Shown: positions 10,434-57,163, counted from the first letter of the stretch. The stretch: DNA of 64,000 bases from Paraphysomonas bandaiensis (GCA_965644295.1 CBFFRP010000162.1:34007-98006); one strand, 5' to 3'. Numbers and translations are program-made. The notes: generated by a model from the sequence alone, not told the origin.

Positions 10434-10467
<34 letters not shown>

Positions 10468-10730: not shown

Positions 10731-10812
10731 CCAGATCATCTCTCATTCATGTTTATTTCTTCATCCATCTCATCTCGTACCTTAACATACACCCCCCTAC
10801 CCCCTTATCTAA

Positions 10813-13142
10813 ATGTCAGATGTCTTACTATTCATTAAGGCGTATCTTAAAAAGAAAGGATACGATAAAGCAGCTAGTGAATTAGATGAAGAGATAAGAG
10901 AGAAGCATCCCTCACGGTCCAGTCAAATATCTCATACATCACCATTCGGTACAGCTACTAAACTCATAATGGAATTATATGAAAATGAAGATAGACATCG
11001 TGTATTAGTGGGGGATTATGAGATATATCGTAACTGGGTGTATGAGTCGATTGATATGGTCAGACCTGAGCTACAGGCTACATGTTTCCCTCTATTTGTA
11101 GGCAGGTATGTATATATATGTATATATATGTATATATATATGTGTATATGGATATATGTATAGATGTGTGTGAGTATGTATCTTATAAAAAGGTTATTAT
11201 AATCATTTTGTTTATGTGTTTTGTATACAGTTATATTCTTATGATACGGTCAGCGCTCTACACTGAAGCAAGACAGTTATGGGATGCTGTGAATGGCGAT
11301 TTCATCGATTCTCATGCAGTAGAGATACGGGCACTTTCCCAATTTAATAATGTGTCGCAGTTGAACACTTCATTCATACAAGATAATACTTTCGTGTACG
11401 TATGTTGAGTCGCGGTCGTGTTGTATGTTTACATTTGCTGCTGCAGGAGGCGCGCTCTCCGCGGTAAATTTTGTCTGCAAATATCAGTCCTCGCTTTTGA
11501 GCTACTAAAACGTTTCTTAGTTGAGCGTGGCCTCTTGTCCATCCTTTATGTACTCAACTCAACTATCGAATTCAATATATATCAAAATGGGATGACAGAA
11601 ACAACCGCCTGTTCTGCGAAATTGGAGGACCGTAATTCTACTGGTAAGTCTAATTGCAGTGCGAAGAGTACATCTTATCGATGGATATATGCAGCAAACC
11701 ATCAGTCGTTGGATCTTCCCAAAATGACCTGGGGCGTTATGGGCAAGGGTCCATACACAGTGGAGGGGTTGACTTCGTCTGACATCCTTCCTGACTTGTC
11801 GGACCCTTATTTCAGTAACATTTTAGAGAAGCTTGTGTACCCTAAAATTTTACTTCGGGGGAGAAAGGAAGACGAAGATGGTGACGAGGGCGATGATGAC
11901 TCTGGCGATGCTCTTGAGCCTTCTGTAGTTTTTGCTTCTTTTGGCAATACCTACGGCGGCATGACATGTCTTTCTATGTCCCGTGACGCGAAGCAGGTGG
12001 TAGGTGGATTTGACGACTCTTCTGTTCGTGTGTGGAGCTACAGTGCTAACACTTTCCAGAAGCAGTCGGAAAATGAAGGGGACGATTTTGTCGGAAATAT
12101 GACCGAGATACTACCGAGGTATACGTCAGAAGGAAGTATGGAAGAGAGCAGTAATGTTGAGGGTAATTCGTCGACCCCATCCCTACATCGTACAACTTCA
12201 GCGGGGTCTCAGGTCGGAAATAAGGATGGCAGCACCTATCCATACACATTGACTTTGCGTGGGCACGTGCGTCGCGTATATGGTGTATCCCAGGAAGAAT
12301 ACAGCGGAGAATTACGACAGGTATTATCGTGTTCAGCTGACGAGACAGTGCGCCTCTGGGACACGCACCTAGGCCGGTGCGTAGCGCGGTATGACGTATG
12401 CGAAGGGGTGCCTTGGGATGTGAGCATGAGCCCACTTGGCTACTACTTCCTCACTGCCAATCAGTGTAAAACGGCCTCACTCTTCTCGACAGACCGACTA
12501 TTCAGTTTGCGAGTATTCAGTGGACACACCAGTGATGTAACATGTGTGGCTTGGCACCCTAACATGGCTTACGCAGCCGCCGGTAGTGACGATAGATGCG
12601 TTCGCCTTTGGGACATTCGTGCCAAAGGAGAATGTGTACGCTGCTTCGGTCCAGGAAGGGTGCGAGGGACGGGACTTCATGATGGTGCTGCAGCTGCGGC
12701 GTCTTTGTCACCTGTCACCGCTATACAGTGTTCACCTTGCGGCGCCATGCTGGCTGCTGGATACGAGGACGGTACCATCGCATTGTGGGATGTGCCCTCT
12801 CAACAGCTGTCTGCTATACTTTCCGGTAGTGTAGACGGCGGGAATAAGCTGAAGAAAGGATTAAAGCGAATGCGAAGAGATCCCACTGCACCGGTGTACT
12901 CGGTCGCATTTAGTGCTGACAGTTCGGCTATAGTTGCGGGTGGGAGGTCTGGAGTTTTAGGTATATGGAATATCTCACCGGCCTCTAGGTGGAGTACTGA
13001 AAATGGAACCTGTCCCCAGGATCAGCTGCTTATATCTCCACACAAATCATTTCTCACGAAACATACACCTGTATACTACGTTGGATATGGTACCAACAAC
13101 ATAGTTTATGCGGGAGGAGCAATTGACATACCGTCGTACTGA
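10813..13142 (+). CDS. TAF5: TFIID subunit 5 (LisH, NTD2, WD40 repeats), about 3 exons
   Basis: LisH-like LFIKAYLKKKGY; NTD2-like YRNWVYESIDMVRPEL...FPLFV; WD40 repeats with TAF5-type motifs (GFDDSSVRVW, SCSADETVRLWD, SPLGYYFLTA, FSGHTSDVTCVAWHPN, TKHTPVY). Confidence 0.9.
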
Positions 13143-15483: not shown

Positions 15484-18400
15484 CTATTCTTCCAAGTCAT
15501 CATTTCTTTGATGTATACCCACACGAGCGTGCAATGTAAAAATTTCCATAATTGGACAATGTACTTTCATCAACGCCGCCAGTCCACGAAGCAAACCAAC
15601 AGTGCGGCTAATAAAGTAGTACTCTTCCGGAATGTGTCTTACGGAGCGAATACTACTACTCTTGTGACCAGAGGCCCTGTCTTCCGCACGTTGAGCACTT
15701 CGCATGTCATTGAACAGTTTACGTTCTGTATGTGAAGTCTTCAAGTCCTGCAAGTATCTATAAAGTCATATACGATAACACAGGGCTGCATACGCCGCGC
15801 ATCACATACTCACATTGGCATCACGAAAAAGGAATTCAAAAAATTCCCTGTCTCTTTCTGGTGCTCGATCGGACTGGTTGTTTGCGTACCCAAGACTCTT
15901 AAGTGCCCGGTCGACCCCTGCTATATCCTCCTCCTGAATACTAATTAGCAGATGGCAGTATGCCAGTCGTGTTTCGTCATTGATTCTGGATATGAAAATA
16001 TGAGTCAACAGAGTTACAGAAACAAAATTATAACAGTATATTAGAGAGCGAGCCACAAAAACTATCTACCTTTTCGTAATCCCAAAATCTAAGAGCCCGG
16101 GGTGCCATAACTGGTTTCTCATAGAAGGTAATTCTTCAACTGGCAAGATTTTCGACTCTATTCCTCCTCCCTTTTTAGTCGCAGCAGGTGCGTATGCAAC
16201 AGGCGGTGCACAGTCGTCTACCGAAGATTCTACACAGAATACATTCCCAGGGTGGGGGTCGGCTGCGACACGTTCAATACATAATAGGTAAAGGAAATGA
16301 CAGAGGCTTACCGTTAAAACATCCAGCAACAAGCATATGGTAGGCGAGGGAATGTGCCAATCTGCACAGCAAGGAAGACTTGTCCACATTATGTAAGGAT
16401 AAAGCGAAATCGTCTGTAATCTAAATTGATGTCAACAAGACTCCACGAATGCCAACTGTTTATCTACCTTAAACCCTTTAAGCTTGGTCATTACAAATAC
16501 TCTACGGTGAACATATCCCCTGATAGGTGAGGGAATAAGCGTTCCAAATCCTGCCTCCTGCATAGCGTTTTGTGCCTATAATACCGTTACGCATACACAT
16601 ATGTGCACGGATAGCGTTGTACACATATAAACCTAAGCAGGTGCGGTAATCAATATACCTCTACTAGATTTTTAGCCTCTATTCTGAAATCTAGCTCCTC
16701 AGCTATAGTTCGTTGCCACACTTTTATCACCGTCAAAAGTGCCTACGCCACCAGAAACACAATTAAATTACAAAAAAATATTGGATAGTGATACCTCCCA
16801 CTTGGGATCCATTCTGCTTGCAACCTTTGCAATAAATAGGGCGGCGCTAATGTCAGTCATCAGCAGAGTTTCTACCCCAGGGTGCTGGACTTTCACAACA
16901 ACATCGCGGACAATGCCATCCACAAGCATCGTTGCATTATGCACCTGCGCTACGCTACCAGATGATTGAGGATTCATGTCGAAGCTCTCAAACATCTCTT
17001 CTATTGTCCGAATACGGTTTCCATGTCGGTACCCAAATATCTGTTCTTCTCTACGACTGCTAGCACTTAGGCAAAACTCGACTGTAGAGCGCACATGTAG
17101 AGCCGACGACTGGGGACAGTTGTCGTGTAAACATCCCAGTGTCGTAGACCAGAGGGCAGACACCAAGTCTGGGCGGCCAGCCACATATTGCGCGACCTTA
17201 ATAAACACAGACTTCAGAGAACGAACTTCCGTCAGTACATATGCCGCCAACACACGGTCCAGCGCGTCGAAGGCAGCCGTATACATATTTCTGTTTTCAT
17301 TTTTAGATTCTGCATACACCAAAGCACTCGAAGAGTCCGCGGCGACATGCTTCCGGCAGCCGCAGAGCCGTAAGATAATAGTTAGGTATAGGTATGCCGA
17401 TACCACAGTAGCTGTAGGAGTGTATATAGTGAACATCCGCTCCACAGTCATGATCCATGTAAGAACTCTCGCTTGTGCACTCCAGGTGCAGCACTGTTCT
17501 CCATAAATTTTCACTTGTGATATTGAGTGATGTAGAGCGGTCGATAAGATCCAGGTACAAAAAATAACACCGAAACCAGGTCTAAACACTACTGTAGACA
17601 CTGCCGCTTTAGCAAGATCGTACACAATTACCAGAGGCGGGGAGCACGATCGGAACACAGTCGGTATCTGTTGGGTGACTATGGAGGCGCATAATACAGA
17701 AAGAAGAGAGGTAAATATTGGAAATATTAGGTAGCCTACCAGGGCAACTGCGGCAGGTGCCCGGGTATACTGCATGGCACACACGAGGGTGAGGAACCCA
17801 AAGCCTACTACAGAGAGTGGGAGAGGGACCACCAAACCCACACACACCTCCCATATTAGCACTAGCATAGGTTTCTCAGACAGATGAGACTGATTTAAAA
17901 TAGCGTAGAGTGTGGATATAAAAGTATCGGTTGACGACATCAGCAGAGGCAGACTAACCCCAATAACAAGGACAAATATTGTGCCCCAAAGTGTTACTCT
18001 AGGCAAGAGGTACAAGAACACCGACGCAGCAGCCGCAGTCACAGATTTCTCACCGTCACTACTACGAGGCCAAAAAGACGATTCCTCTGCCTTCTCCAAT
18101 CGTCGGCGCAAAGAGAACACCTCTTCGCGCAAAGCTGTACTAGGACTGTGTGAACGGGAAACAATTGGCCCTGTGTTCTGCACATGAGCAGCCCATTGGC
18201 ATTCACGATGCAAGGATTCAGTACTGTGAGTGACTGACGACGGATGAAAATACTCCACAGTGGGCGAATCGTTGCTAATTGTAGAAGCAGCATGATGTCG
18301 TGCCCGTATCAGGGCTTGATGTCGCCTCACATTCTCACCATCATCTCCCTCAAATTCGCCATTACCACTAACCTGTCGACCCTGCTCTTCGCTCTCAGCA

Positions 18401-19161
18401 GACTCGCTATGTCCCTCAGATCCAGGAACTGCCCCAAGGAACTGAAGAACCGCCTCATCCATGGACCCTATCTGAATTATTACCAGCTGCACGAATAATG
18501 AAAGGTCTTCCATTCGACGGCGAACAACTTTAGGGTCTACTGATGAATTGGACATCAGGTGTCGTCGGGGAAGTTGAGGCAAGTTAGGATAACCCTTGCT
18601 TTCCAACTGCTTCCGAAAAGTCACAAAATCAGAAAAGCGATGCGATGTTTCCCAGTATATACCACCTATTCTATCTATTGATCGAATCACATACACTGTA
18701 TGGCGGTTGCCACCTTCATCAATCTTTTCAAATGTTTTCTTAATTGAAACATCGAGATTAAAATTCATACGATTCTTTTCCATCATAACTTTTACTGCCG
18801 CACGAAGATGTATACTTAATTCACCAAATACATTAGTATCACCATATAATTTAATATGTCCACCCATTAAAGCTGACATGGGCTTTAATATCCCTCTGGA
18901 TATCTTTGCCATTGAATAAGAGTCTGTTAATACAATACAATCTATATTAGATTTCTCAATTCCACGTGATGAGATACGTTCCGTTCCTTCCCCTATCTTA
19001 ACAAGCCAATTAAAATCTTCTTCAACACGAAATACAAGTGTTTTCATATGATTATTATGAGATGCTTGAAGAACTTGTTCATGAAGATATTTAAAGTATT
19101 TAGAGATACAAACACGATTATCATCAAGTGAAAAGATCTTCTCAGGTGAAGAAATAGACAT
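15484..19161 (-). CDS. ABC1/UbiB-family atypical kinase with N-terminal SCP2-like, PX and multi-TM regions
   Basis: Kinase motifs FIKVAQ..RPDL, SGSVAQVH, VVVKVQHPG, ELDFRIEA (exon ~16670-16744), ADPHPGN, LDFG. PX: HTVYVI..RFSDFVTFRKQL..PQLPRR..RRMEDL. SCP2-like: DCIVLTD..GILKPMSALMGGHIKLYGD. Confidence 0.88.
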
Positions 19162-19263
19162 GATGATTGATGAGGATGTGGAGATTATGGTGTGAGATTG
19201 AGTGAGTTTGGTGCGTATACAGATACTGACTGCTATAGATCTCTATGCGTGATGATAAGGAGC

Positions 19264-19265
<2 letters not shown>

Positions 19266-19294
<29 letters not shown>

Positions 19295-19786
19295 TGTATG
19301 TATGTATGTATGTATGTATGTATGTATGTATGTATGTATGTATGTATGTATGTATGTATGTATGTATGTATGTATGTATGTATGTATGTATGTATGTATG
19401 TATGTATGTATGTATGTATGTATGTATGTATGTATGTATGTACGTATGTATGTATGTATGTATGTATGTATGTATGTATGTATGTATGTATGTATGTATG
19501 TATGTATGTATGTATGTATGTATGTATGTATGTATGTGTATGTATGTATGTATGTATGTATGTATGTATGTATGTATGTATGTATGTATGTATGTATGTA
19601 TGTATGTATGTATGTATGTATGTATGTATGTATGTATGTATGTATGTATGTATGTATGTATGTATGTATGTATGTATGTATGTATGTATGTATGTATGTA
19701 TGTATGTATGTATGTATGTATGTATGTATGTATGTATGTATGTATGTATGTATGTATGTATGTATGTATGTATGTATGTATGTATG

Positions 19787-19820
<34 letters not shown>

Positions 19821-19866
19821 TGTATGTATGTATGTATGTATGTATGTATGTATGTATGTATGTATG
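19266..19866. repeat. (TATG)~150 microsatellite ~105 bp upstream of the ABC1 gene
   Basis: Directly visible with few interruptions. Confidence 0.98.
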
Positions 19867-21344
19867 AATGTATGCATGTACCCCTGTACCTAAATGAGAG
19901 TACAGGAGTACGATTCCTGTCCCTCAACAACTTCTGATTGGTTGGGTGGATATATGGCACACAGGTACAAGTACATATGGAAGTGGCGTACCCACAGAAA
20001 AAAACTGTAGAAACTTCCCAGTTTTTTTTTTCAGTTTATTTCCCATCCAGACACCGTATTACACACAGTTTCATACGTTAAGGTCCCCAACATATGTCAA
20101 TCATATGCTCAAACAGTGATACATATCACATAAACACACTAGGTTACCAATAGAACATGCAATTCTGGAGGTGTGGGGTCCAACTTCCACAAGTTTTGGT
20201 GGAAATTTTCTTGTAAGATTGCAATTGTTATCCTGCATCAAAATTATGGAGAGCTCCTGAACTCACTGTGAGGTACATAGCAGAGACCAGTTGCTGAAAA
20301 CAATGTTGTGATTGCAAAGATTAGATTGTGAATACTGATTTTGGATTCGTTAATAAACGGTCAAGAAGTATGCACAGGTCATTATAGGAGGATCTGTCCT
20401 AATTGCACCATCCTTGTTGCACTTAATGATCCCATATGCCCTCCAATTCAATGAATCGTGATCATTCTTACTGTTTGAGTGATATGAATATGATATTGGC
20501 ATTCATCTCTTATTTTGTTGGAATTATGTGCATTCGTTGACAGATCTCTATATCTGTATTGACATCCATAGTCCCAAACCCCTTATAACCACAGGTGTAG
20601 TTGTCCAATTATATTACTTTATTATGTTGCAGTGTTTATGATACTGTTTTAATGATTTGACTAATATAAGTATGCTTTGATGAAATATTGAGGCCATATT
20701 GGATGGAGTTGCTACTTTGCAGATGCAATATAATACGCACGTATGTCGCCTTTGAAGCAATGAAAACGGAGTTAAAATAGTTATAATAACTCACTACAAA
20801 CATCCAATTTGATTGGGTAAAGTTGATATCATGTCATACATCCTTCACTGTTGGTGAGGAATTACGATTACATGTATAAAACTTATGCGAGTTTATAGAT
20901 ATACTTATGCGAGTTGTGACATTGTAAGAGTGGCAGACAACATTTACAGCGACTTGTACAATACGTAACCCCTTTATTATTCATCCTTAGACAGTGTGGC
21001 TTTAATATATTTGCAATAGGCTTCTGTCATTTACGTTTCAATAGCTACTATTACTACAGCACCGTTATATATCACCTCTGATAAATTCACCACAACCTAT
21101 ATCCTATATATATTATTGTTATCCTGACTGTTTACTTGATCATTTGTGGTTCAAAAAAACAACCTTCTTGTTCCAATCGTTATATTATACTAATATACTA
21201 CTAAAAAAGGTATACTGTCAAAGGACGACATCAGATAAATGACGCCACAGCAGTGCCACATATTAAATACTAAATACAAGCTCTTGTTACAAAAAGTCTC
21301 ATGTGAGCAAAATTAAATCACGAGATACAAATACAAACAAACTT

Positions 21345-29427: not shown

Positions 29428-30078
29428 ATCTCTGTATAGATCTTACTAGTTAACTAGTATAATAGTAAGTAACTAACTGAAGATGATCATCATGATATCA
29501 TCATATTAATTATAAGTAAGTTTATTGTTTGAATGAATCATATGATGAATTAGATCTGAGGAGTGGTAGTAGTTAGGTTACATGTATGGAGATATGTATG
29601 TTTATATAACTAACACACTGCTGTGGAGAGTATTGCCCGTATGTACGTATGTACGTAGGTACGTACGACATAGATACAAGTACAGAAATCGAATATATGA
29701 TATGACGTATATGGTACGTATATACATGTAGATGGTACCTACATACACGTAAATACTTGTAAAAAAATTGCTGATATCTTCTTTTTTTAACTTTCTTTTC
29801 CAATTTCGAAGTACAAAATCCCCATAATCACTAAAAACTAGCGATTTCGAGATTTTATCATTGAGAATACTACGATTTCCATTTCCATAAACAAGTACAA
29901 TACACGTGGCAAATAACAAAATCCATCACGAGTAGCAGTTCCAACGGCTTTTCTGTAAAATGTGGAAGGTACCGTACTCAAGCCCGCACCATAATGGTGT
30001 GGAACTATATAAGTGGTGATGATGAGTGACCAGTGGTATGTATGGTGTTGCTGGTGAGTAATAGATCCAGGGAGGTGG

Positions 30079-30820
30079 GTGTTGAAGGAGGAGCTCTCTC
30101 ATCACAGCATGGTATCATACATACAGAACATAATAACAGCGAGAACATATCATAGTAGCATGGAATCAACTACCACGGAATCAACTACCACGGAATCAAC
30201 TACCACGGAATCAACTACCACGGAATCAACTACCACAGGGGGCATTAGAAAAGTCGGTGATGGGGAAACCAAAAATCGTAACTCCTCTGCGTTAGCTCAG
30301 TTTGCGAAGTACTTGGAGATGCGGTTCGACGGGAAGAAGAGGTATAAGGAACTCATAGACAGTGATATAAATGTAGAACTATTTCAATGTTTCGGTGGCT
30401 TTTTGATCGATCACGCCGTCCATGGAACAACGAAGAAGCCTTTGACCCTAGGTACTGCTTGGCAGTATTTGTCAGACACGAAGACTGCGCTGACGAAGCG
30501 ATTTAAAAGAAATGAGTTATTAAGCAGCTCCAATGAGCTGTGGTACAAAGATGTGAGAGCGGCAGTATCAAAGCATATTATCAAGCGGTGTATCGCACAA
30601 GGAGTGCGTATATCAGAGAAAACAAGTCCAGTGGGGAAAGAACTAATGAAGCGCATAGGTGAATACATTATACATCGGGCATCTGATTTCTCCGGTAAGT
30701 GGACATACTTCACATATCTATGATTTACTGTATGCTAATAAACTTTATTTAGAAGTGAAGAAGTATTCATTGTACAATCTCTATTTGGTTTTCACGTTTG
30801 CTGCTGTTGGTCGGGTGTCA
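30079..30820 (+). mobile_element. Truncated Crypton-like tyrosine-recombinase gene
   Basis: Helical core-binding-like N-terminus (ALAQFAKYL...LFQCFGGFL...TAWQYLS). After a GTAAGT..TTAG intron (~30695-30752) it reads NLYLVFTFAAVGRVS, resembling YR box I with the catalytic Arg. The rest of the catalytic domain is absent. Confidence 0.55.
30162..30236 (+). repeat. 15-bp coding tandem repeat x5 (ESTTT)
   Basis: GGAATCAACTACCAC repeated five times. Confidence 0.95.
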
Positions 30821-30859
30821 TTAGTAATTGGAATACATCGTATCATTATTTACAGAGCA

Positions 30860-31290
30860 TACAACAGTATAATCAACCATCACAGCGTTCAGCATTTTAT
30901 TATTCCACACCGTTCAGAATTCTTATCACATACAGCCATACTGCATACCCTTACACAACATGACACATATTCACTGCAAGATGGAACAGGGGCAGCCGGG
31001 CGCTTGTGTCGCTTAGGCATCCCTCTTGCACCGGTAAGTATAAACGTCATTGCGCCTACAACAGCATAATAAACCATCACAGCCTTCAGCATTTTATTAT
31101 TCCACACCGTTCAGAATTCTTATCACATACAGCCATACTGCATACCCTTACACAACATGACACATATTCACTGCAAGATGGTACAGGGGCAGCCGGGCGC
31201 TTGTGTCGCTTAGGCATCCCTCTTGCACCGGTAAGTATAAACGTCATTGCGCCTACAACAGCATAATAAACCATGACAACATTCAGCATC
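30860..31290. repeat. 197-bp near-identical tandem duplication (~2.2 copies)
   Basis: Near-identical ORFs offset by 197 bp (30889 vs 31086). Confidence 0.95.
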
Positions 31291-32290: not shown

Positions 32291-33084
32291 AGGAGGTCAT
32301 AAAACCTGTGCATCACCGAAACCGCCCACGGATATAATCTACAGCTTGCTTTTTACTGGAGTTTCCTGCACGCTTTGCCACCTTGTCATTGGCTCCCAAC
32401 TTCACGGCTTATAATTACAGCTTTCAATTGCTTTCATATAGCAGTACTCAACAGCCACTCTAGTCACACCAAAATTTGTGATTAACCCAGCTAGTCAAAA
32501 GGTTGCAAGACCTTGTCAATTATATTTTAAAGTTTACAATGACTAAGATGACTAGATGTAATAGGATAGTGACCGAAAATGTTTGGAGCAGGCTAATATC
32601 TTACTATATAAGCAAACACATATGCTTGTTGTCAATTTTGGAAAAAATTATTTGAATTATACTTCTGTTACTTCTTCTGAATTTATTGCATTGTGGTCAC
32701 GAAGAACTGGAATGTTAGTTTAACGAGTTTTAAACTTTTGAATAATATTATTATAACTAACGCATAAAACAAAATAAACTTAAGTATATACATTATAATA
32801 ATAAGTAATCGAGCTACCGTCATTCACGGCATTTTATAGATTCTTACAAGTAAAATCCCATTTTACATTTAAAATCCAATGGGCTACAGACTAAGCATAT
32901 ATATCACTGTATACTACTATGTAATCTACTTAATATGAATATAAAAAATGCCCTCCTTATCCATATACAAGATAACCATGATATTGTTACTATTTCTTGT
33001 CTGCATAGAACAATGGACACCTCCTGAAAACTAAGCCATAACGCATAATATGAACAAAGACAATTCAAAACATCTAAAGGTCCA

Positions 33085-35601
33085 TACTAAGCAGCAAAGC
33101 GGCACCACCTTTCAAAACGTGGACATGGAGGGTTCTTTGAACGAAGCCATCTCAAAATATCTAAGTTTCCATATCCATCAGTAGCACTGCAAGTATCTGA
33201 ATCATATGGACATGGAGGGTCCTGTGAACGAAGCCACCTCAAAACATCCAAGTGACCATATCTAGCAGCAAAACATCCAAGTGACCATATCTAGCAGCAC
33301 CACTGCAAGTATCTTCACCCCATGGACATGGAGGGTCCTGTGAACGAAGCCAACTCAGAACATCCAAGTGTCCACCTTCTGCAGCACCACTGCAAGTCCG
33401 TTTATTCCATGGACATGGAGGGTCCTGTGAACGAAGCCACCACAAAACATCCAAGTGTCCATATCTAGCATCACCACTTCAAGTATCTTCCCCCATGAAC
33501 ATGGAGGGTCCTGCGAACGAAGCCAACTCAAAATATCCAAGTGTTCATATCTAGCAGCACCACTGCAAGTATCTTCACCCCATGGACATGGAGAGTCCTG
33601 TGAACGAAGCCAACTCAGAATATCAGAGTGTCCACTCTATGCAGCACCACTGCAAGTCCGTTCATTCCATGGACATGGAGGGTCCTGCGAAAGAAGCCAA
33701 CGCAAAATATCCAAGTGTCAATATCTAGCAGCACCACTGCAAGTCCATGCACCCCATGGACATGGAGGGTCCTGTGAACGAAGCCAACTCAGAACATCCA
33801 AGTGTCAATATCTAGCAGCACCACTGCAAGTATCTTCACCCCATGGACATGGAGGGTCCTGCGAACGAAGCCAACTCAGAATATCCGAGTGTCCACTCTC
33901 TGCAGCACCACTGCAAGTCCGTTCATTCCATGGACATGGAGGGTCCTGTGAACGAAGCCAACGCAAAACATCCAAGTGTCCATATCTAGCAGCACCACTG
34001 CAAGTATCTTCACCCCATGGACATGGAGGGTCCTGTGAACGAAGCCAACTCAGAATATCCGAGTGTCCACCTTCTGCAGCACCACTGCAAGTCTGTTTAT
34101 TCCATGGACATGGAGGGTCCTGCGAACGAAGCCACCTCAAAATATCCAAGTGACCATATCTAGCAGCAAAACATCCAAGTGACCATATCTAGCAGCACCA
34201 CTGCAAGTATCTAAACCCCATGGACATGGAGGGTCCTGTGAACGAAGCCAACTCAGAACATCCAAGTGTCCATATCTAGCAGCACCACTGCAAGTATCTT
34301 CACCCCATGGACATGGAGGGTCCTGTGAACGAAGCCAACTCAGAATATCCGAGTGTCCACCTTCTGCAGCACCACTGCAAGTCCGTTTATTCCATGGACA
34401 TGGAGGGTCCTGTGAACGAAGCCACCTCAAAAAATCCAAGTGACCATATCTAGCAGCAAAACATCCAAGTGACCATATCTAGCAGCACCACTGCAAGTAT
34501 CTTCACCCCATGGACATGGAGGGTCCTGTGAACGAAGCCAACTCAGAACATCCAAGTGTCCACCTTCTGCAGCACCACTGCAAGTCCGTTTATTCCATGG
34601 ACATGGAGGGTCCTGTGAACGAAGCCACCACAAAACATCCAAGTGTCCATATCTAGCAGCACCACTGCAAGTATCTTCCCCCATGAACATGGAGGGTCCT
34701 GCGAACGAAGCCAACTCAAAATATCCAAGTGTTCATATCTAGCAGCACCACTGCAAGTATCTTCACCCCATGGACATGGAGAGTCCTGTGAACGAAGCCA
34801 ACTCAGAATATCAGAGTGTCCACTCTATGCAGCACCACTGCAAGTCCGTTCATTCCATGGACATGGAGGGTCCTGCGAAAGAAGCCAACGCAAAATATCC
34901 AAGTGTCAATATCTAGCAGCACCACTGCAAGTCCATGCACCCCATGGACATGGAGGGTCCTGTGAACGAAGCCAACTCAGAACATCCAAGTGTCAATATC
35001 TAGCAGCACCACTGCAAGTATCTTCACCCCATGGACATGGAGGGTCCTGTGAACGAAGCCAACTCAGAATATCCGAGTGTCCACTCTCTGCAGCACCACT
35101 GCAAGTCCGTTCATTCCATGGACATGGAGGGTCCTGTGAACGAAGCCAACGCAAAACATCCAAGTGTCCATATCTAGCAGCACCACTGCAAGTATCTTCA
35201 CCCCATGGACATGGAGGGTCCTGTGAACGAAGCCAACTCAGAACATCCAAGTGTCCACCTTCTGCAGCACCACTGCAAGTCCGTTTATTCCATGGACATG
35301 GAGGGTCCTGCGAACGAAGCCACCTCAAAATATCCAAGTGTCAATATCTAGCAGCACCACTGCAAGTCCATTTATTCCATGGACATGGAGGGTCCTGCGA
35401 ACGAAGCCACCTCAAAATATCCAAGTGTCAATATCTAGCAGCACCACTGCAAGTATCTTCATTCCATGGACATGGAGGGTCCTGTGAACGAAGCCACCTC
35501 AGAACATCAGAGTGTCCACTCTCTGCAGCACCACTGCAAGTCCGTTCATTCCATGGACATGGAGGGTCCTGCGAACGAAGCCACCTCAAAATATCCAAGT
35601 G
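33085..35601 (-). pseudogene. Untranslated 3' part of the ankyrin array (stops and frameshifts)
   Basis: TGA at 35428, 35341, 34993, 34906, 33805 and 33718; TAG at 34825 and 33637; a 1-nt deletion and 29-nt insertions. Confidence 0.8.
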
Positions 35602-36625
35602 TCAATATCTAGCAGCACCACTGCAAGTATCTTCATTCCATGGACATGGAGGGTCCTGTGAACGAAGCCACCTCAGAACATCAGAGTGTCCACTCTCTGC
35701 AGCACCACTGCAAGTCCGTTCATTCCATGGACATGGAGGGTCCTGTGAACGAAGCCACCTCAAAATACCCAAGTGTCCATATCTAGCAGCACCACTGCAA
35801 GTATCTTCATTCCATGGACATGGGGGGTCCTGTGAACGAAGCCACCTTAAAACATCCAAGTGTCCACTCTCTGCAGCACCACTGCAAGTCCGTTCATTCC
35901 ATGGACATGGAGGGTCCTGTGAACGAAGCCACCTCAAAACATCCAAGTGTCCACTCTCTGCAGCACCACTGCAAGTATCTTCACCCCATGGACATGGAGG
36001 GTCCTGTGAACGAAGCCACCTCAGAATATCCAAGTGTCCACCCTCTGCAGCACCACTGCAAGTCCATTCATTCCATGGACATGGAGGGTCCTGCGAACGA
36101 AGCCACCTCAATACATCCAAGTGTCCATATCTAGCAGCACCACTGCAAGTCCATGCACCCCATGGGCATGGAGGGTCCTGTGAACGAAGCCACTTCAAAA
36201 CATCCAAGTGTCCATATCTAGCAGCACCACTGCAAGTCCATGCACCCCATGGGCATGGAGGGTCCTGTGAACGAAGCCACTTCAAAACATCCAAGTGTCC
36301 ATATCTAGCAGCACCACTGCAAGTCCATTCATTCCATGGACATGGAGGGTCCTGCGAACGAAGCCACCTCAATACATCCAAGTGTCCATATCTAGCAGCA
36401 CCACTGCAAGTCCATGCACCCCATGGGCATGGAGGGTCCTGTGAACGAAGCCACTTCAAAACATCCAAGTGTCCATATCTAGCAGCACCACTGCAAGTCC
36501 ATTCATTCCATGGACATGGAGGATCCTGTGAACGAAGCCACCTCAAAATATCCAAGTGTCCAAATCTAGCAGCACCACTGCAAGTATCTTCATTCCATGG
36601 ACATGGGGGGTTCTGTGAGCGAAGC
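33085..36625 (-). repeat. Tandem array of ~40 x 87-bp (29-aa) ankyrin-type units, including a 1188-bp higher-order duplication
   Basis: Unit W-xxx-TCSGAA-xx-GHLDVLRWLRSQDPPCP. Duplicated ORFs are offset by 1188 bp (33355/34543; 33805/34993); 1188 = 13x87 + 2x29 - 1. Confidence 0.97.
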
Positions 36626-37062
36626 AACATCTTAACCTGACTACCCTGTACAGAGGTAGCATTCCGTATATCCGATTGGTCTAGTGGTTCCTGTGAGGTC
36701 GTATCATTGTGAAGGGCGGTATGTTTGATGTGTATCATCTGCTGTAGTCTGCCGTATAGTGCACATGTATTCATTAGTTTGAGGGGTGGACAGCCCATAG
36801 ACAGAGCCCATGAGACCATTGAGTTGGTCATACAGTAGTGCGTTGCACGTGACTGTACTCTCCTCTTATCAGTGTAGACTATATCGTGAAATCTCTTACA
36901 AGTCATGATCACTGGAAGGAGAGCCGTGTGTGGGATCATGGAGATGATGAGACGCAGCACATCATCGTTAAGAACAGATACATGTGACATATCACACTGA
37001 TTCATAGTTTCTATAAGACTATTAGAGTATGTATACAGCAGATGACAGTGAGATGAGTTCAT
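35602..37062 (-). CDS. Intronless F-box-like + ankyrin-repeat protein (CPW-type repeats, as in algal and giant-virus proteins), 11 full repeats before the first stop
   Basis: N-terminal VLNDDVLRLIISMIPHTALLPVIMTCKRFHDIV is F-box-like; AAxxGHLDVL ankyrin motif. True start may be the ATG at 37005 or 36990. Confidence 0.8.
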   Translation of the reverse strand: MNSSHCHLLYTYSNSLIETMNQCDMSHVSVLNDDVLRLIISMIPHTALLPVIMTCKRFHDIVYTDKRRVQSRATHYCMTNSMVSWALSMGCPPLKLMNTCALYGRLQQMIHIKHTALHNDTTSQEPLDQSDIRNATSVQGSQVKMLLRSQNPPCPWNEDTCSGAARFGHLDILRWLRSQDPPCPWNEWTCSGAARYGHLDVLKWLRSQDPPCPWGAWTCSGAARYGHLDVLRWLRSQDPPCPWNEWTCSGAARYGHLDVLKWLRSQDPPCPWGAWTCSGAARYGHLDVLKWLRSQDPPCPWGAWTCSGAARYGHLDVLRWLRSQDPPCPWNEWTCSGAAEGGHLDILRWLRSQDPPCPWGEDTCSGAAESGHLDVLRWLRSQDPPCPWNERTCSGAAESGHLDVLRWLRSQDPPCPWNEDTCSGAARYGHLGILRWLRSQDPPCPWNERTCSGAAESGHSDVLRWLRSQDPPCPWNEDTCSGAARY

Positions 37063-38636
37063 ATCATACTGTACATATATACCCCTCTACGAACAAAAAA
37101 ACACTAATTTTTTAATCCTTTTTACTTACTTTTTATTCAAATACAGCTTAGAAATCAGAGATTTTATTCCCAGCCACTAGATCTCTCCTGTATGTACAGC
37201 AGTTGTTAACGTTTACATGCATTGCTTGCTTCTTCTTGTAGCTATCTGAGTGGATACGCTATAGATACAGAGTCGAAATGATGTCAATGGAAGATTGAAA
37301 AAGCTCATTACACATGACACTATGTGTAATAATGTTGCTTGATAGTGTTCTATAGTCAAAGTGACTGCTAAATCAATTGTTTCTAGCTGTTGAGACAGAG
37401 ATGTCATAGAGGTTGACTGGCATTATAAAGCAGTTAGCTAGAATTGTTTATTCAATTTTTGCCTCTGCAATTGTAAATCTTTCCTGGTTCATTTTACTCA
37501 AGTCATAGACGTATCATTCACAGATGAAACACTTGGAACTTTCCAGTAACTTGAAATCCTGCAGTCACGCCTAAAGTGTCTTCCTAAGTGTGATGTTACA
37601 TTTTTTTTATGTTCTTAATAACCAAAAGTATGTCAGTATACTTCTTTCATGTCTTAATTATGATGTCATCAAGACACTGTCTTACAGATTTGATCCATCT
37701 CAACATAACCATTTAGAGATCAAAATTTACATTTTAAAGGGCATATGTTTTGCATCTTTTTATAAAGAATAAGTGTCCAGCTTTAAAATGTGTAACCTTG
37801 ATTCTTTCGAGATTACAGTGTACACAAGTCTATGCGTCTATGCTACGTTCCAGGACTAGATAACAATATATTTTATTACAGTACAGTAGTTGGTTTGGTT
37901 ATCAGCCATGTGTTCTTAATATCTTAATGACTAATACTAAAAATGGAATCTACGGATGTGTTTACTTACTGATATATTGCAATATATTGTAATTGTATTG
38001 TTGGGCCTGTTTAAAATCTCTATTAATAGTATTGATGGAACGCTATCTAACAATAGTATTGCAATATACAATATATTGCTATGTCCAATATCAATACCAT
38101 TAATGGACTTCTAATGGACGAAACAATATACATTTCATTCTGTTCTCTAGTGCATCCTAGTATTACGTTGTGATGGAAGTTCAGTATAATTACTACTAAT
38201 AGCTCCTGCGTTCTCGACAGCTACCACCTGCAACAATTACGTAGAGAATAATAAGAAACAATGAGTAATAAAATCGCTTGCATCTAAGTTTTGCAAAGCG
38301 GATTACTTTTTAAATTTATCCATGTCTGTATATACGGACGAGGGAGACGATGTTCGTAAAGCTCTGACCTTATGAAGTTCATTAACATCATGGTCCACGA
38401 AAAGTGGATACTTCACGTATCACATGCTGTAATACCTTACAACAAAAGAAGTCATCTAATTGCTGTTTAACAGACTCTTTATTATGTGATTCACATTGAA
38501 AATTATTGTAATTCTCATACAGGCTAAACAATTATCCTCATCTGAGCGCTACGACCTCATGTACGGTGTTTTCACCGAAGAGTTCAATCCAAACTATTGT
38601 CGTCCACAATATACACTATTAATTAGAATGAATTGA

Positions 38637-38999
38637 TTACATGGGGCTTCCAGGCTCAAAGTAAGCTGGCTTTCTCCTCTTGCGCTCACTTCTGCGAGAA
38701 GGCGACATCATTGGTTCGGTGGGTTTGGGGGGGGTGGTAGCGGCTTGCTTCTTTGGGGTCGCCTTCTTCCCACTGCCTACAGACTTTCTCTGTCTTGTCG
38801 TAGATGGTGATGCCTTACCCTTTGGGGATGCGATCGACTCTTCTCTCTGGGATGTTTCAGTAAAGTCTTCAGCATCATCAGGTGCGAGCAATACACTCAC
38901 AGCTCCAAGAGTAAACAACACTACGATAACATATATGATAAATGTTTTCACAGTAGTGGGTTCAAACGCAAAGATGCCAAATTTTGTTGGCTCAGACAT
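38637..38999 (-). CDS. Small single-TM protein with a basic Ser/Thr-Pro-rich tail, function unknown
   Basis: ATG 38999 (MSEPTK); hydrophobic FIIYVIVVLFTLGAVSVLL; tail SPSRRSERKRRKP. Confidence 0.7.
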   Translation of the reverse strand: MSEPTKFGIFAFEPTTVKTFIIYVIVVLFTLGAVSVLLAPDDAEDFTETSQREESIASPKGKASPSTTRQRKSVGSGKKATPKKQAATTPPKPTEPMMSPSRRSERKRRKPAYFEPGSPM

Positions 39000-40191
39000 T
39001 GTTATTAATATAAAGGCTTTTGAAAAGCAAAGCAACCGCTATATAAGTGTGTAATTTTAAATAGTGATCTGCTGGTATCGGTTAGTTGACGGCCGGCTGT
39101 ATTATATAGAGATAGACGTATACATATACACATACATATATAGATGCTCACAATCTTAAACGGTCATCTTCAGTTGTGATGGATTAGGACCAATCATATC
39201 AGGGTCATAGTATACAGAGAATACGATGGCGTATATACTTATTGTTTTGAATTGTGTAGTGTATACATTGAATACAATTCCGTATATTATATACATGAAA
39301 TACAGTTATACAGTTACAGGTGCTGGTGTCTATACAGAGGAGAAAGAGATCTGGATGATACTGGAGGATCTGATGTTAGACATTCCTTGTTGCAGGAAAG
39401 AGCATTGAGTAGTCATGCTTTGCATTGATATAAACCCCTCACTCATAGAAACAGTATTCTACAGGAAGTCGAGAAGTTGTTGTCTTGAGGTCTCTGGATG
39501 AATGGTCACAATTGGGACAAGAAAAAAGAGTTAATAGCAGTTCAGAGGTCTTTTGTATTTAACAGAACTCTTAATGTCATTAGGAAGGGGTCTATGCTTA
39601 TTTAGAGAGATAAGTCTTTACTATAGCACAAAAGATAATCCTGTCCTCATTTATCAGAACAGCTATTGTTACAGTATTGCGAATATTCAGTTTTACACTT
39701 ATTAACCATATCATAAAGCTGAAACCGTTTATTCAAATACATCTGAAATCAATTTTGTAATCATCATATTAAACATTAAACCAGTCCAACCTACTCACAT
39801 GTGTTGGAAGTTGAAATTCGTTTGTTAGTATACAATATCCAAAGCATCATATGAATAATGATGAAGATTAATTTGTAATCATTTATATGTCATTGTAGAA
39901 CCGATAGGTAACCTTCATAACCAATCATGTATCGCCATTGCGTGGAAATGAAGAGTTCCAACTAAAAAACAAATGGTAGTAGTAGCTATAAATGGGATAG
40001 TATTAAAATTGTAATAATCATATCTAACTATTAGTTTAATTAGCGACGCAGAAAATAGGAACGTTCGCAGTAACATACAAATTTATTCATTAGGGAGACA
40101 CATCTTTCGCAAATTGTGATGATTTACTCCAACAAAAGACGCCCATGTTGAAGAAATTTTCGAGAAATAAAGTCCAACAAACGTACAGTGT

Positions 40192-40999
40192 TCATTTTGA
40201 TGAAGAGAATGAAGAAAAATAATCTGCTTTAATTTTTCTGAGGAGATGGTAGCCGGATGATGCTCCCAGAGCGACATTCACCAACGCAAGATTGTAGTTC
40301 ACAGGAGTAATAACAAAAGAGTAACGAGTCCAAATTAGACCTGTAGCAGTCAAGGCAGCAGTTTGGGCGAAACTGATGGTGTCAGTTGGTTTGTCCAAAT
40401 TTAACAAGTTTGTTCCAGAGAGCATCCATTTCGACGTGGGTGCCCAAAAAAATATAGTGAATGGTCCTGCAGGGTGGGAGCTTGTGGAGCGAATAAAACT
40501 AGGCATGCTCGGAGCAGATAAAAGAGCTTTCACGCGCGTAGAAGAAACCATAATGGCGGCTAGTGTAGCGCCTGCAACAGCAGCTTTCTGGCCAATGGCC
40601 GTCAGCTCTTCGACAGCATTCGCAGAGTTTGCTAGCTTGTATTCAATAGCTCTTCGTAGCTGATTTATTTGGGCAGCAACATTGAAAGTATGGCATGCAA
40701 ATAAAAGGTAATTTCTCGGCTGTACTTTCCAAGCAAATCTCATGAATAGCGATGAATAGCCAATCATAACACCAGTCATGGGAACATCAATGATCTCTGG
40801 CCCTTTGAAGCTGGCATCATAGACAGCAGCGCCCACTAGACCCCAGTTTGCAACTATTCGATCACAAATGTAAGCATCATACATTAAATATTTAAACTAG
40901 CCTACCTGGACCCCAGAAATGTGTGGTCTTCCACCCATGCTCTGGGTGAGTAAGGTTGGCAATAATGGATCGAATGAAGGAGGTGGACTGAGAAGCCAT
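40192..40999 (-). CDS. Mitochondrial pyruvate carrier, MPC1-MPC2 single-chain fusion (2 exons)
   Basis: Exon 1 ends KTTHFWGP; intron 40905-40854; then VANWGL...FMRFAWKVQPRNYLLFACH (MPC1 type) followed by HPAGPFTIFFWAPTSKW...TGLIWTRYSFVITPVNYNLALVN (MPC2 type). Confidence 0.93.
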
Positions 41000-53553: not shown

Positions 53554-54116
53554 GATGCAAACCAATGCAATGATTGGGAATTAATGAGAGTAGTGTGATA
53601 GTGTGGATTGTTATGTACCACAACAGTAATATGATGTGACATGTACTGCTATACTGCTGTACTCATATACTTTATTTACGTACGATAGTTGATATACAGT
53701 TGTTATAGTAACTGTGTATGTCATAAGAAGAAATTGTAACCAAAGACATATCGGCATCCTTTGTATATTTTTGTTCAAAGATGCCTCTATTACTGAGACA
53801 ACAATTATCTATAGACCAGCCGTAGGTGTATAGCAGTAGTATAGAGTATATTTGCTTCAACCAATTTCCGAAACCTATGATGCTGACAGCCGATAAGGAA
53901 ATTAGAGTTTTTCGATGCAATGTTGTTAATTTCTAGATCTTGAATGTCAACAGCATTAGAAATACTCTAGAAAACTGAATTTTCAACAAAAATTCCGCTT
54001 TCTATCACATTTGATTACCAATTTTGCCACAATAACAAATAAACACAAACCAATCCAACGATATCAACAACTCCTCAAGAAGCATCTTATAAACTAACTA
54101 CTAGCAAAGTATAATA

Positions 54117-54542
54117 ATGGCATTGTCTATCCTACGCAACGATCCCTTTTATCGCGATGTCTTCGCTCCGTTGAATGAAGATCGAGTTGTGTCTAATCTT
54201 CAGCCGATCATGAACTGTGACTTGATCGAGACAGAGAATAATTATCATGTCCACGCCGACCTTCCCGAAGTAGAAGAGAAGGATCTGGATATATCAGTTG
54301 AGAATAATTGCTTGATTCTGAAGGCACAACGTGACAGGAAGCATGAGGTCAACACATCGAAGGAGCACAGAGTTGAAAGGAGTTTTGGCCAGGTTCAGAG
54401 GTGCCTGAAGTTGCCGAAAACGGCTGATGTTAGTAATTGCACCGCGAACCTAGAGAATGGTGTCCTGACAGTCTCCTTCCCTAAGTTGCCTGAGGCAAAG
54501 CCACAGAAGATTCAGGTTAATCTTCAGAAGCCTTCAGCATAG
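54117..54542 (+). CDS. Small heat-shock protein HSP20, copy 1 (two aa differences)
   Basis: Alpha-crystallin motifs DLIETE, ADLP, HRVERSFG, ANLENGVLTVSFPK; C-terminal IQV motif. ETENN and DLPE replace ETEND and DLPG. Confidence 0.95.
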   Translation: MALSILRNDPFYRDVFAPLNEDRVVSNLQPIMNCDLIETENNYHVHADLPEVEEKDLDISVENNCLILKAQRDRKHEVNTSKEHRVERSFGQVQRCLKLPKTADVSNCTANLENGVLTVSFPKLPEAKPQKIQVNLQKPSA

Positions 54543-55717
54543 ATTTGGATCAATGTATCGATGTCAATTAGAAAGGGTCGTAAGGAGGCCTATGTACTAT
54601 AATCACAGTATAGGTTAGATTGTATTATCTTATATTTTTATTATTTTCCGACTCTTTCGATTCGAATTTTGGACTTCATTTAATTAATTTAACTTTGAAA
54701 TCATTCTATTAAAATGTTGACACATTGTTAATGTGACATGTCGTGCTAACTGAGGATTACAAGTACAGTAGTTATTATGCGTTACTTAATTAATATAGAA
54801 TTTCATCGTTACCTACATGTGAGATATTGTCAAAGATTGCGAGATTACTAGTTGGATCTGTGGTCATGTTCTTGGTTGTTGTTCCTGTCCCATAGGTGTA
54901 TATACTTGATGTAGGCGCATTCATAAAAGTGCTTAGTATTGAATGTATAAACTAAGGTGTTTTGTAATCTGTAGGATACTCACTTACAAAAAACGAATAT
55001 ACTGTAATTGTTTCTCTTAGTAGCTCTCTTAGTTTAGGTACATGCATATTCTACCATTCATTTTGCTATTATTACTTATTGAGCATAGCGTATAAATATA
55101 CCCACCCAGCAGCAGTGAAGCTATGACTAATGACTACTATCTACATGCAATATCCTCGCTGCTATATAAATATTTCTGTTCAAGTGATATTACATAAAAT
55201 TATGTTTGCATTCATTACACGCTAAAGGCAATCAAGTGATACACACTACTAACAATTGCCATGTCGATAATAATTATGTTACAAACTATGTATTTGCTTG
55301 AAGAATTCCATAAACGTTAATAATACAGCTTAGTTCACCAATTCCTCAATAACCGAGTGCTTTGTTTATCCCTAATCAGTACTCTACAGACTGACTCTGA
55401 TTGACAGATTGACAGCTACCTACATTATCAAAGCTACAACGCCGTAGCAAACTATAACATATTCCACATAACTTGCTACGCAATATAACTACTGTACTTG
55501 TAATCCTCAGTTAGCACGACATGTCACATTAACAATGTGTCAACATTTTAATAGAATGATTTCAAAGTTAAATTAATTAAATGAAGTCCAAAATTCGAAT
55601 CGAAAGAGTCGGAAAATAATAAAAATATAAGATAATACAATCTAACCTATACTGTGATTATAGTACATAGGCCTCCTTACGACCCTTTCTAGTGGACATC
55701 GATACATTGATCCAAAT

Positions 55718-55754
55718 CTATGCTGAAGGCTTCTGAAGATTAACCTGAATCTTC
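55718..55754 (-). pseudogene. 3'-terminal 37-nt remnant of an HSP20 copy at a deletion junction
   Basis: Matches the end of the HSP20 CDS, then jumps to plus-oriented 3' flank sequence. Confidence 0.85.
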
Positions 55755-56737
55755 ATATTTTTATTATTTTCCGACTCTTTCGATTCGAATTTTGGACTTC
55801 ATTTAATTAATTTAACTTTGAAATCATTCTATTAAAATGTTGACACATTGTTAATGTGACATGTCGTGCTAACTGAGGATTACAAGTACAGTAGTTATAT
55901 TGCGTAGCAAGTTATGTGGAATATGTTATAGTTTGCTACGGCGTTGTAGCTTCGATAATGTAGGTAGCTGTCAATCTGTCAATCAGAGTCAGTCTGTAGA
56001 GTACTGATTAGGGATAAACAAAGCACTCGGTTATTGAGGAATTGGTGAACTAAGCTGTATTATTAACGTTTATGGAATTCTTCAAGCAAATACATAGTTT
56101 GTAACATAATTATTATCGACATGACAATTGTTAATAGTGTGTATCACTTGATTGCCTTTAGCGTGTAATGAATGCAAACATAATTTTATGTAATATCACT
56201 TGAACAGAAATATTTATATAGCAGCGAGGATATTGCATGTAGATAGTAGTCATTAGTCATAGCTTCACTGCTGCTGGGTGGGTATATTTATACGCTATAT
56301 GCTCAATAAGTAATAATAGCAAAATGAATGGTAGAATATGCATGTACCTAAACTAAGAGAGCTACTAAGAGAAACAATTACAGTATATTCGTTTTTTGTA
56401 AGTGAGTATCCTACAGATTACAAAACACCTTAGTTTATACATTCAATACTAAGCACTTTTTATGAATGAGCCTACATCAAGTATATACACCTATGGGACA
56501 GGAACAACAACCAAGAACATGACCACAGATCCAACTAGTAATCTCGCAATCTTTGACAAGATCTCACATGTAGGTAACGATGAAATTCTATATTAATTAA
56601 ATGAAGTACAAAATTCGAATCGAAGGAGTCGGAAAATAATAAAAATATAAGATAATACAATCTAACCTATACTGTGATTATAGTACATAGGCCTCCTTAC
56701 GACCCTTTCTAGTGGACATCGATACATTGATCCAAAT

Positions 56738-57163
56738 CTATGCTGAAGGCTTCTGAAGATTAACCTGAATCTTCTGTGGCTTTGCCTCAGGCAACTTAGG
56801 GAAGGAGACTGTCAGGACACCATTCTCTAGGTTCGCGGTGCAATTACTAACATCAGCCGTTTTCGGCAACTTCAGGCACCTCTGAACCTGGCCAAAACTC
56901 CTTTCAACTCTGTGCTCCTTCGATGTGTTGACCTCATGCTTCCTGTCACGTTGTGCCTTCAGAATCAAGCAATTATTCTCAACTGATATATCCAGATCCT
57001 TCTCTTCTACTCCGGGAAGGTCGGCGTGGACATGATAATCATTCTCTGTCTCGATCAAGTCACAGTTCATGATCGGCTGAAGATTAGACACAACTCGATC
57101 TTCATTCAACGGAGCGAAGACATCGCGATAAAAGGGATCGTTGCGTAGGATAGACAATGCCAT
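56738..57163 (-). CDS. HSP20 copy 2
   Basis: 141-aa ORF identical to copies 3-8. Confidence 0.95.
   Translation of the reverse strand: MALSILRNDPFYRDVFAPLNEDRVVSNLQPIMNCDLIETENDYHVHADLPGVEEKDLDISVENNCLILKAQRDRKHEVNTSKEHRVERSFGQVQRCLKLPKTADVSNCTANLENGVLTVSFPKLPEAKPQKIQVNLQKPSA

What the first reader, a model, noticed from the sequence alone, without database searches (positions are those of the whole stretch)
33085..37062. F-box-like protein with a 'natural DARPin library': near-identical ankyrin modules varying at the binding-surface positions
Seen: ~40 87-bp units share a nearly invariant scaffold (minor V/I, R/K/S, L/S changes), with strong variation at two sites: the 3 residues before T (NED, NEW, GAW, GED, NER, NKR, NKW, NKQ, GLD) and the 2 residues in AA-xx-GH (RF, RY, EG, ES). 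The translated order is NED/RF, NEW/RY, GAW/RY, NEW/RY, GAW/RY, GAW/RY, NEW/EG, GED/ES, NER/ES, NED/RY, NER/ES, so the two sites reassort combinatorially. Known: AAxxGH positions 13-14 and the residues before the T of TPLH are the target-contact positions randomised in DARPins; F-boxes couple substrate receptors to SCF ligases; fungal HNWD NLRs diversify near-identical repeats by unequal crossover. Inference: a recombination-diversified recognition/degradation receptor (possibly antiviral), or a captured giant-virus gene.
Basis: partly seen in the sequence, partly recalled or inferred. Interest (0 to 1): 0.82.

Follow-up and report, generated by a model that had tools for sequence, protein, structure and literature searches.

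The report
Truncated F-box gene, hypervariable ankyrin family
A marine protist gene joins a predicted ubiquitin-ligase adaptor (F-box) to 40 near-identical ankyrin-type DNA repeats, but a stop codon leaves only about 11 of them translated; it is one damaged copy of a large gene family whose predicted binding residues vary far more than silent sites, which likely makes the family a diversified recognise-and-destroy repertoire with unknown targets.

Summary
The 40 units of 87 bp are real, but a TGA in unit 12 (35602-35604) ends the protein after 11.6 repeats; 15 of the 29 units from unit 12 on carry stops or frameshifts. NKR, NKW, NKQ and GLD are never translated. The N-terminus is a divergent F-box: under Pfam's cut-off, but it matches F-box folds and docks on a stand-in Skp1 at 0.86 against 0.01 for the best control. 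Amino-acid changes cluster at positions that vary across the family (p about 1e-4), but within this copy omega there is 1.3, not above 1 (p=0.35), and the two variable sites are linked in 36 of 38 units rather than freely mixed. The stronger signal is family-wide: contigs from four runs show many paralogues whose silent sites are nearly fixed while neighbouring binding-face codons vary 17-82%. Relatives occur in algae and giant viruses; no viral genes flank this copy. The scan noted similar F-box-ankyrin families in other marine protists before. Verdict: a truncated member of a likely diversifying SCF receptor family; new variant of a known kind.

The parts
35602..36990 (-). Open reading frame, 462 aa from the likely start; in-frame upstream ATGs at 37005 and 37062; no intron needed; ends in TGA inside repeat 12, so it lacks a C-terminal cap
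36862..36972 (-). Divergent F-box (three helices)
   Evidence: Pfam F-box 18.7 bits, cut-off 20.5; fold matches Skp2, FBH1, cyclin F F-boxes at Z 4.5-4.8; predicted Skp1 docking 0.86 vs 0.01
36613..36861 (-). Linker with one or two degenerate ankyrin-like helix pairs; low model confidence; some paralogues skip about 115-125 bases of it
   Evidence: (table 5)
35656..36612 (-). Translated repeat units 1-11 (29 aa each; variable positions 7-9 and 16-17; positions 12-13 frozen here though variable in the family)
35602..35604 (-). First TGA stop, at the conserved Gly codon 18 of unit 12; an identical stop-bearing unit is in a contig of RNA-type run X10
   Evidence: record 13
33222..35601 (-). Untranslated tail, rest of unit 12 to unit 38, with propagated stops and frameshifts; never more than 3 lesion-free units in a row
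34410..35220 (-). Units 17-25, first copy of a higher-order block repeated 1188 bp away; 6 of 9 unit pairs identical
33222..34032 (-). Units 30-38, second copy of the higher-order block, lesions included
33048..33221 (-). Divergent terminal units 39-40, likely the former end cap; unit 40 has a TAG

Best explanation
This is a nonsense-truncated copy of a large family of protist genes that join an F-box to short (29-residue) ankyrin-type repeats and likely work as substrate receptors of SCF ubiquitin ligases, with repeats kept alike and remixed by recombination while a few predicted binding-face residues diversify. Steps. (1, shown) Units were copied and mixed inside the array: identical units, a 1188-bp block duplication and four-gamete conflicts. 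(2, shown) A Gly-to-stop change arose and was copied along with its unit, so the protein stops in repeat 12 and the 3' 27 units decay. (3, predicted) The F-box binds Skp1. (4, predicted) The repeats stack into a helical solenoid; positions 9, 12/13 and 16 lie on one face of the inner helix. (5, inferred from contig pile-ups) Across the paralogues, silent sites are homogenised while those codons are hypervariable, the pattern of diversifying selection on a concertedly evolving repeat. (6, inferred) Targets are likely fast-changing proteins, such as those of viruses or other intracellular parasites, marked for degradation. The truncated 462-aa product has a normal repeat number for the family but no cap; it may be a weak receptor or already dead.
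For: Scaffold under purifying selection in units 1-11 (omega 0.18, p=8e-4) and 12 of 17 amino-acid-changing steps in the 7 positions defined independently from 64 homologues (p=1e-4). Internal identity 0.855 against median 0.68, maximum 0.78 in those 64. At least 4 recombination events in units 1-11, 7 in units 1-38. Family-wide, the silent third bases of Thr10 and Ala14 vary under 2% in all four runs and Cys11 2-6%, while the first two bases of codon 9 vary 29-55% and the second base of codon 13 17-82%. Summed contig depth over the N-terminal part is 5300-7000 against 24-31 on unique flanks in X1, and 10,000-13,000 against 83-94 in X6 (not a copy count). F-box-like Pfam hits in 30 of 86 family members; among the 50 fold rows shown, the three that cover only residues 3-46 are all F-boxes. 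Skp1 docking 0.86, best of 3 controls 0.01, contacts agree in at least 98%, partner pLDDT at least 84; the mark was reached by 51 of 78 solved and 2 of 108 mismatched pairs; this is a textbook pair and the Skp1 is a stand-in from a viral-collection contig, so it shows likeness, not binding.
Against: Omega at the variable positions within this copy is 1.3, not significantly above 1 (p=0.35). Two of the family's most variable positions (12, 13) are invariant in all 38 units. Sites A and B are linked in 36 of 38 units. The F-box is under Pfam's cut-off and Foldseek gave no match at E<=0.001. 114 of 120 homologues keep at least 22 residues after the last CPW motif; this protein has 14. Locus-specific RNA contigs are shallow (19.5 and 28.8, against 499 for the neighbouring MPC gene) and could be DNA carry-over. 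The pile-up shares are depth-weighted contig sums, need 80% likeness and cover only codons 9-17.
Confidence: 0.58

Rival explanations
1. Ordinary repeat turnover with relaxed constraint: the family is a lineage-expanded F-box-ankyrin family of no special recognition role, and this copy is a decaying pseudogene whose few old unit types were amplified neutrally like a minisatellite; the variable positions are simply the exposed ones.
For: Omega 1.3 at variable sites is compatible with neutrality; two unit types alternate along the tail; 15 of 29 tail units are broken; the closest relative found, P0171 (73% over the N-terminus), also leaves frame before the repeats; the same positions vary in non-homogenised homologues.
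Against: Family-wide silent sites are far less variable than adjacent amino-acid-changing sites in DNA and RNA-type runs; multi-base codon alleles without intermediates persist in a homogenised scaffold; the scaffold of the translated part is under purifying selection while tail-only alleles include P-to-S, A-to-D, G-to-E, R-to-L and stops.
Confidence: 0.25
2. The gene was captured from a giant virus, or lies in an endogenous viral or mobile element, and was amplified selfishly.
For: Pandoravirus, cedratvirus and pithovirus ankyrin proteins, some named F-box, are the top structural matches in the viral library; 28 viral loci encode relatives; the exact 29-residue subtype occurs in AT-rich giant-virus-like contigs (L004, L042, L052, L055); the gene has no intron in an intron-rich genome; a tyrosine-recombinase-like remnant lies 2.3 kb downstream.
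Against: No viral gene among the 19 window ORFs scanned; neighbours are spliced host genes; GC of the N-terminus (0.46) matches host exons (0.44-0.50); named best sequence hits are Chloropicon, Raphidocelis, Tribonema and chrysophytes; only 1 of 28 viral loci has three or more 29-residue units; no long terminal repeats flank the gene. An ancient viral origin is not excluded.
Confidence: 0.1
3. The long tail is partly an assembly artefact (over-expanded array).
For: No read or contig spanning the array was examined; the 1188-bp block has a 382-base exact run.
Against: The two blocks differ in 3 of 9 unit pairs; 27 of 38 units are distinct; the stop-bearing unit occurs letter for letter in a run under another organism label.
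Confidence: 0.07

Closest known systems
Fungal NLRs with ANK/TPR/WD repeats of high internal conservation (PMC4986451, passages; PMC13449251, abstract, passages, section 12)
   Same: Repeats over 85% identical, variable residues on the inner helix and loop, repeat shuffling, frequent pseudogenised copies.
   Different: No NACHT or NB-ARC ATPase and no cell-death domain; an F-box instead; 29-residue repeat; positive selection and allelic repeat polymorphism not formally shown here.
F-box plus short CPW-type ankyrin proteins of pandoraviruses, cedratviruses, pithoviruses and of algae (Chloropicon, Raphidocelis, chrysophytes)
   Same: Same repeat family and domain order.
   Different: Those arrays are 59-76% identical in DNA in the five loci measured against 88% here; most viral copies use 26-28-residue repeats; this copy is truncated.
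Rapidly diversifying F-box and MATH-BTB adaptors of C. elegans (one passage in PMC4334554 citing the original work)
   Same: Large birth-and-death family of ubiquitin-ligase adaptors with diversified substrate-binding parts, proposed to degrade foreign proteins.
   Different: Different substrate-binding domain; diversity here is built from near-identical interchangeable units.
Designed ankyrin repeat proteins, DARPins (PMC8229355, passages; position numbering recalled)
   Same: Constant scaffold with variable residues; the two residues after Ala-Ala are variable in both.
   Different: 29 against 33 residues; no beta-hairpin in the model, site A lies at the start of the inner helix; no C-cap; only 7 distinct site combinations in the translated part.

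Membership tests
F-box proteins | Pfam F-box or F-box-like score above the curated cut-off | tested here: not met
   18.7 bits vs 20.5 and 17.4 vs 24.3; relative P0177 passes at 29.2
F-box proteins | Three-helix F-box fold at the N-terminus | tested here: met
   Helices 11-20, 23-32, 34-42; Skp2 F-box 41 of 41 residues, rmsd 2.4, Z 4.6; FBH1 Z 4.8; cyclin F Z 4.5. Z is low, as for any small helical domain; Foldseek alone was not significant
F-box proteins | Binds Skp1 | tested here: inconclusive
   Model supports binding, 0.86 vs best control 0.01, through the F-box helices and Skp1's C-terminal part; textbook pair, stand-in Skp1, no experiment
Ankyrin repeats (canonical) | Helix-turn-helix repeat with AAxxGH motif; Pfam Ank families above cut-off | tested here: met
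   Ank_4 89.4 bits, Ank_2 72.6; pLDDT 95-98 over the array; espin ankyrin top fold hit
Ankyrin repeats (canonical) | 33-residue period with TPLH and beta-hairpin | tested here: not met
   29-residue period; no strand in the model
High-internal-conservation (HIC) repeats | Over 85% identity across at least 100 residues (PMC4986451) | tested here: met
   Mean pairwise amino-acid identity 0.855 over 11 units; borderline, and my measure differs from the paper's
High-internal-conservation (HIC) repeats | Positive selection at binding-face codons | tested here: inconclusive
   Not significant in this copy; suggested family-wide by pile-ups
High-internal-conservation (HIC) repeats | Repeat number and order differ between strains | tested here: inconclusive
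   In run X10 the unit before the stop unit has 17 differences where this window's have 14 or 15: another allele or a paralogue
NLR (STAND) receptors | Central NACHT or NB-ARC ATPase | tested here: not met
   No such Pfam hit in the ORF
Endogenous giant-virus element | Viral genes in the neighbourhood, deviant composition | tested here: not met
   only ORFs of 150 aa or more were scanned (19 of 35)

The most novel reading that the evidence does not exclude
A protist keeps a natural library of ubiquitin-ligase receptors: on the order of a hundred F-box genes exchange standardised 87-bp ankyrin modules, and untranslated tails like this one serve as silent donor cassettes (they hold binding-site alleles absent from the translated part, and units 11 and 13 are identical across the stop), giving a recombination-fed intracellular immune repertoire against giant viruses, which carry the same module fused to their own F-box and RING domains.
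Probability: 0.17. Interest if true: 0.82.

Novelty: new variant of a known kind. Interest (0 to 1): 0.48.

Why it matters
How single-celled marine eukaryotes recognise intracellular parasites is largely open. A homogenised, hypervariable repeat joined to an SCF adaptor rather than to an NLR ATPase would be a degradation-based counterpart of fungal HIC receptors, and is testable with long reads and Skp1 pull-downs. This particular copy is a poor entry point because it is truncated; the intact paralogues are the object of interest. Four searches listed no paper on such a protist family, but the library lacks most subscription journals, and supplements were not read.

Tried and rejected
TGA read as a residue: rejected; two neighbouring conserved genes end in TGA, and TAG stops and frameshifts remain. 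Omega-atracotoxin Pfam hit: spurious sum of short cysteine matches, no stretch passes alone. N-terminal word search found nothing (13 candidates); the HMMER search found 8 relatives. The metagenome pattern scan gave 3 loci, none from this organism; one (L001) had no repeat gene among ORFs of 100 aa or more. Skp1 family search in two viral records was blank, controls too. The N-terminal alignment was too loose for a viral scan. The stop allele's frequency could not be read: the variant table only covered 35605-35631. Host identity: the PPIL4 neighbour's best hits are unnamed (75-78%), named ones 53-65%; 'marine protist, perhaps a stramenopile' is inference. Charge swap D9-R16 / R9-E16 in this array is not a clear rule in homologues (28 and 17 opposite-charge, 20 and 8 like-charge units of 362). 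Runs with word share under 0.2 were not used as habitat evidence; one of them, X16, was laid only on the single unit.

Full report
Observation. The array is real: 40 units on the minus strand from 36612 to 33048, each coding a 29-residue repeat. Units 1-38 are 87.6% identical on average; 27 of 38 are distinct. But the reading frame (35602-37086 stop to stop) closes with TGA at the Gly codon of unit 12. From unit 12 to 40, 15 of 29 units carry a stop or a frameshift and no more than three clean units follow each other. The lesions were copied with their units: the same TGA in seven units, and units 17-25 recur as units 30-38, 1188 bp away, with 6 of 9 pairs identical. TGA is a true stop here, since the neighbouring WD40 and MPC frames end in it. 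A contig of run X10, under another organism label, holds the stop-bearing unit without a difference at depth 117.5, so the stop is not a sequencing error of this assembly. The likely start is 36990, giving 462 residues.

Setting. The window is from an intron-rich eukaryote: myosin, WD40, ABC1 kinase, double MPC, TBC-TLDc and PPIL4 genes (19 of 35 ORFs scanned). Runs that hold the stretch include four organism labels and marine metagenomes. The clade is not fixed.

The protein. AlphaFold2 on an 86-row alignment gives a regular helical solenoid, pLDDT 95-98 over the repeats, no strands; each inner helix spans unit positions 8-16. Ankyrin proteins are the best sequence and fold matches, with PPR proteins close behind at lower TM-scores. 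The two residues after Ala-Ala match DARPin variable positions (numbering recalled). Site A does not map cleanly, because the repeat is four residues shorter and has no hairpin. That positions 9, 12/13 and 16 share one helix face follows from helical spacing; I could not measure exposure. The N-terminus scores 18.7 bits on Pfam F-box, under the 20.5 cut-off; 30 of 86 aligned relatives hit F-box-like at E<=0.01. Its three helices superpose on the F-boxes of Skp2, FBH1 and cyclin F at Z 4.5-4.8, though Foldseek found nothing significant. With a Skp1 homologue from locus L040 the complex model scored 0.86 against 0.01 for the best of three controls, through the F-box helices; this is a textbook pair with a stand-in partner, so it shows likeness only. 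The stop removes the last outer helix and the cap: 114 of 120 relatives keep at least 22 residues after the last CPW motif, this one 14; their median motif count is 7, maximum 15, within a search limited to 255-812 residues.

Variation in this copy. Variable positions were defined independently from 362 repeats in 64 of 120 homologues: 7, 8, 9, 12, 13, 16, 17. In units 1-11, 12 of 17 amino-acid-changing steps fall there (25% of sites, p=1e-4); the scaffold has omega 0.18 (p=8e-4); the variable positions have omega 1.3 (p=0.35). Positions 12-13 are frozen. Recombination is evident (31 of 91 informative site pairs conflict; at least 4 events; recurrent mutation could add to this), but sites A and B are linked in 36 of 38 units. 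In the tail the scaffold relaxes (omega 0.52) and the variable positions give 2.4 (nominal p=0.04, one of several tests). So this copy alone shows concentration of change and purifying selection, not proven positive selection.

The family. Laying contigs on the unique 5' part shows summed depth of 5300-7000 over the N-terminal region against 24-31 on flanks in X1, and 10,000-13,000 against 83-94 in X6. The tool warns that this is no copy number; it points to something like a hundred paralogues. On one unit, 1016, 702, 132 and 569 contigs were laid from X1, X6, X16, X10. Within codons 9-17, the only part tabulated, silent third bases of Thr10 and Ala14 vary under 2% in all four runs, Cys11 2-6%, Gly13 1-13%, Ala15 2-23%; the first two bases of codon 9 vary 29-55%, of codon 12 5-43%, and the second base of codon 13 17-82%. 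By contrast a related protist gene (L003) has scaffold pS 0.62. This is the pattern of a homogenised family with hypervariable binding codons, with the caveat that shares are depth-weighted and clipped contigs are lost. X10 is real RNA (a GT-AG intron skipped in MPC, a poly(A) end nearby), so the family is transcribed; contigs specific to this locus are shallow (19.5, 28.8) and may be DNA.

Viruses. Relatives are common in giant viruses (28 loci), mostly with 26-28-residue repeats; only 1 of 28 has three or more 29-residue units. A motif scan gave 27 stretches; of the 7 that I opened, 3 held 29-residue arrays, one with an F-box-like start and two with a RING-like end, both judged by eye, at 59-71% internal DNA identity. 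Context and composition here are the host's, so recent capture is unlikely; ancient exchange is open.

Literature. High-internal-conservation ANK repeats with selected residues on the inner helices and loop are described for fungal NLRs (PMC4986451, passages), with repeat exchange and pseudogenised copies, and are rare outside ATPase-bearing proteins, 5.59% against 22.04% (PMC13449251, abstract, passages, section 12). Ankyrin expansions are noted in Chloropicon (PMC12301720, one passage), Bathycoccus (PMC11409870, passages) and Bodo saltans virus (PMC5871332, passages). Diversifying F-box adaptors are proposed to degrade foreign proteins in nematodes (PMC4334554, one passage). DARPin design from PMC8229355 (passages). 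Searches listed no paper on a hypervariable F-box-ankyrin family in protists. Unchecked notes of this scan describe similar families in other marine protists; they are not independent evidence.

Verdict. A truncated member of a likely diversifying SCF receptor family (0.58); neutral decay 0.25; viral capture 0.10; assembly artefact 0.07. New variant of a known kind; interest 0.48.

Noticed in passing
window 37921-38068: AT-rich element of about 150 bp with inverted arms (37976-37991 / 38067-38082); summed contig depth 30,000-40,000 against 25-30 on flanks in X1: a very high-copy MITE-like repeat.
   Followed up: partly
window 30058-31250: ORF resembling the core-binding domain of tyrosine recombinases (Pfam weak; Atlas look-alikes in oomycetes), followed by a 197-bp tandem duplication: likely a Crypton-like remnant (name recalled).
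   Followed up: partly
window 38460-39041: Small minus-strand gene with a poly(A) end and high depth (about 1400-1600) in RNA-type run X10; no ORF of 150 aa.
   Followed up: no
window 53898-64000: Nested direct and inverted duplications with a period of about 2.25 kb at 93-99.7% identity.
   Followed up: no
window 40192-40896: Mitochondrial pyruvate carrier gene that appears to hold two MPC domains in one frame; intron 40854-40905 seen spliced.
   Followed up: no
window 5068-10018: Myosin with N-terminal GYF and WW domains and a C-terminal SH3.
   Followed up: no
window 16768-19242: One frame joins SCP2, PX and ABC1 kinase domains.
   Followed up: no
window 10343-10730 and 19265-19880: Long, nearly perfect TATG microsatellites (97 and 154 copies).
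   Followed up: no
window 36599-36872 in run X6: Contigs over the coding linker differ by about 11-13% while the upstream flank differs by about 2%; faster coding change or paralogues, not separable.
   Followed up: no
L052 and L055: Giant-virus-like contigs with the same 29-residue repeat fused to a C-terminal RING-like motif.
   Followed up: partly
L034, L035, L037, L038, L040: Skp1 genes in giant-virus records, several apparently with introns.
   Followed up: no
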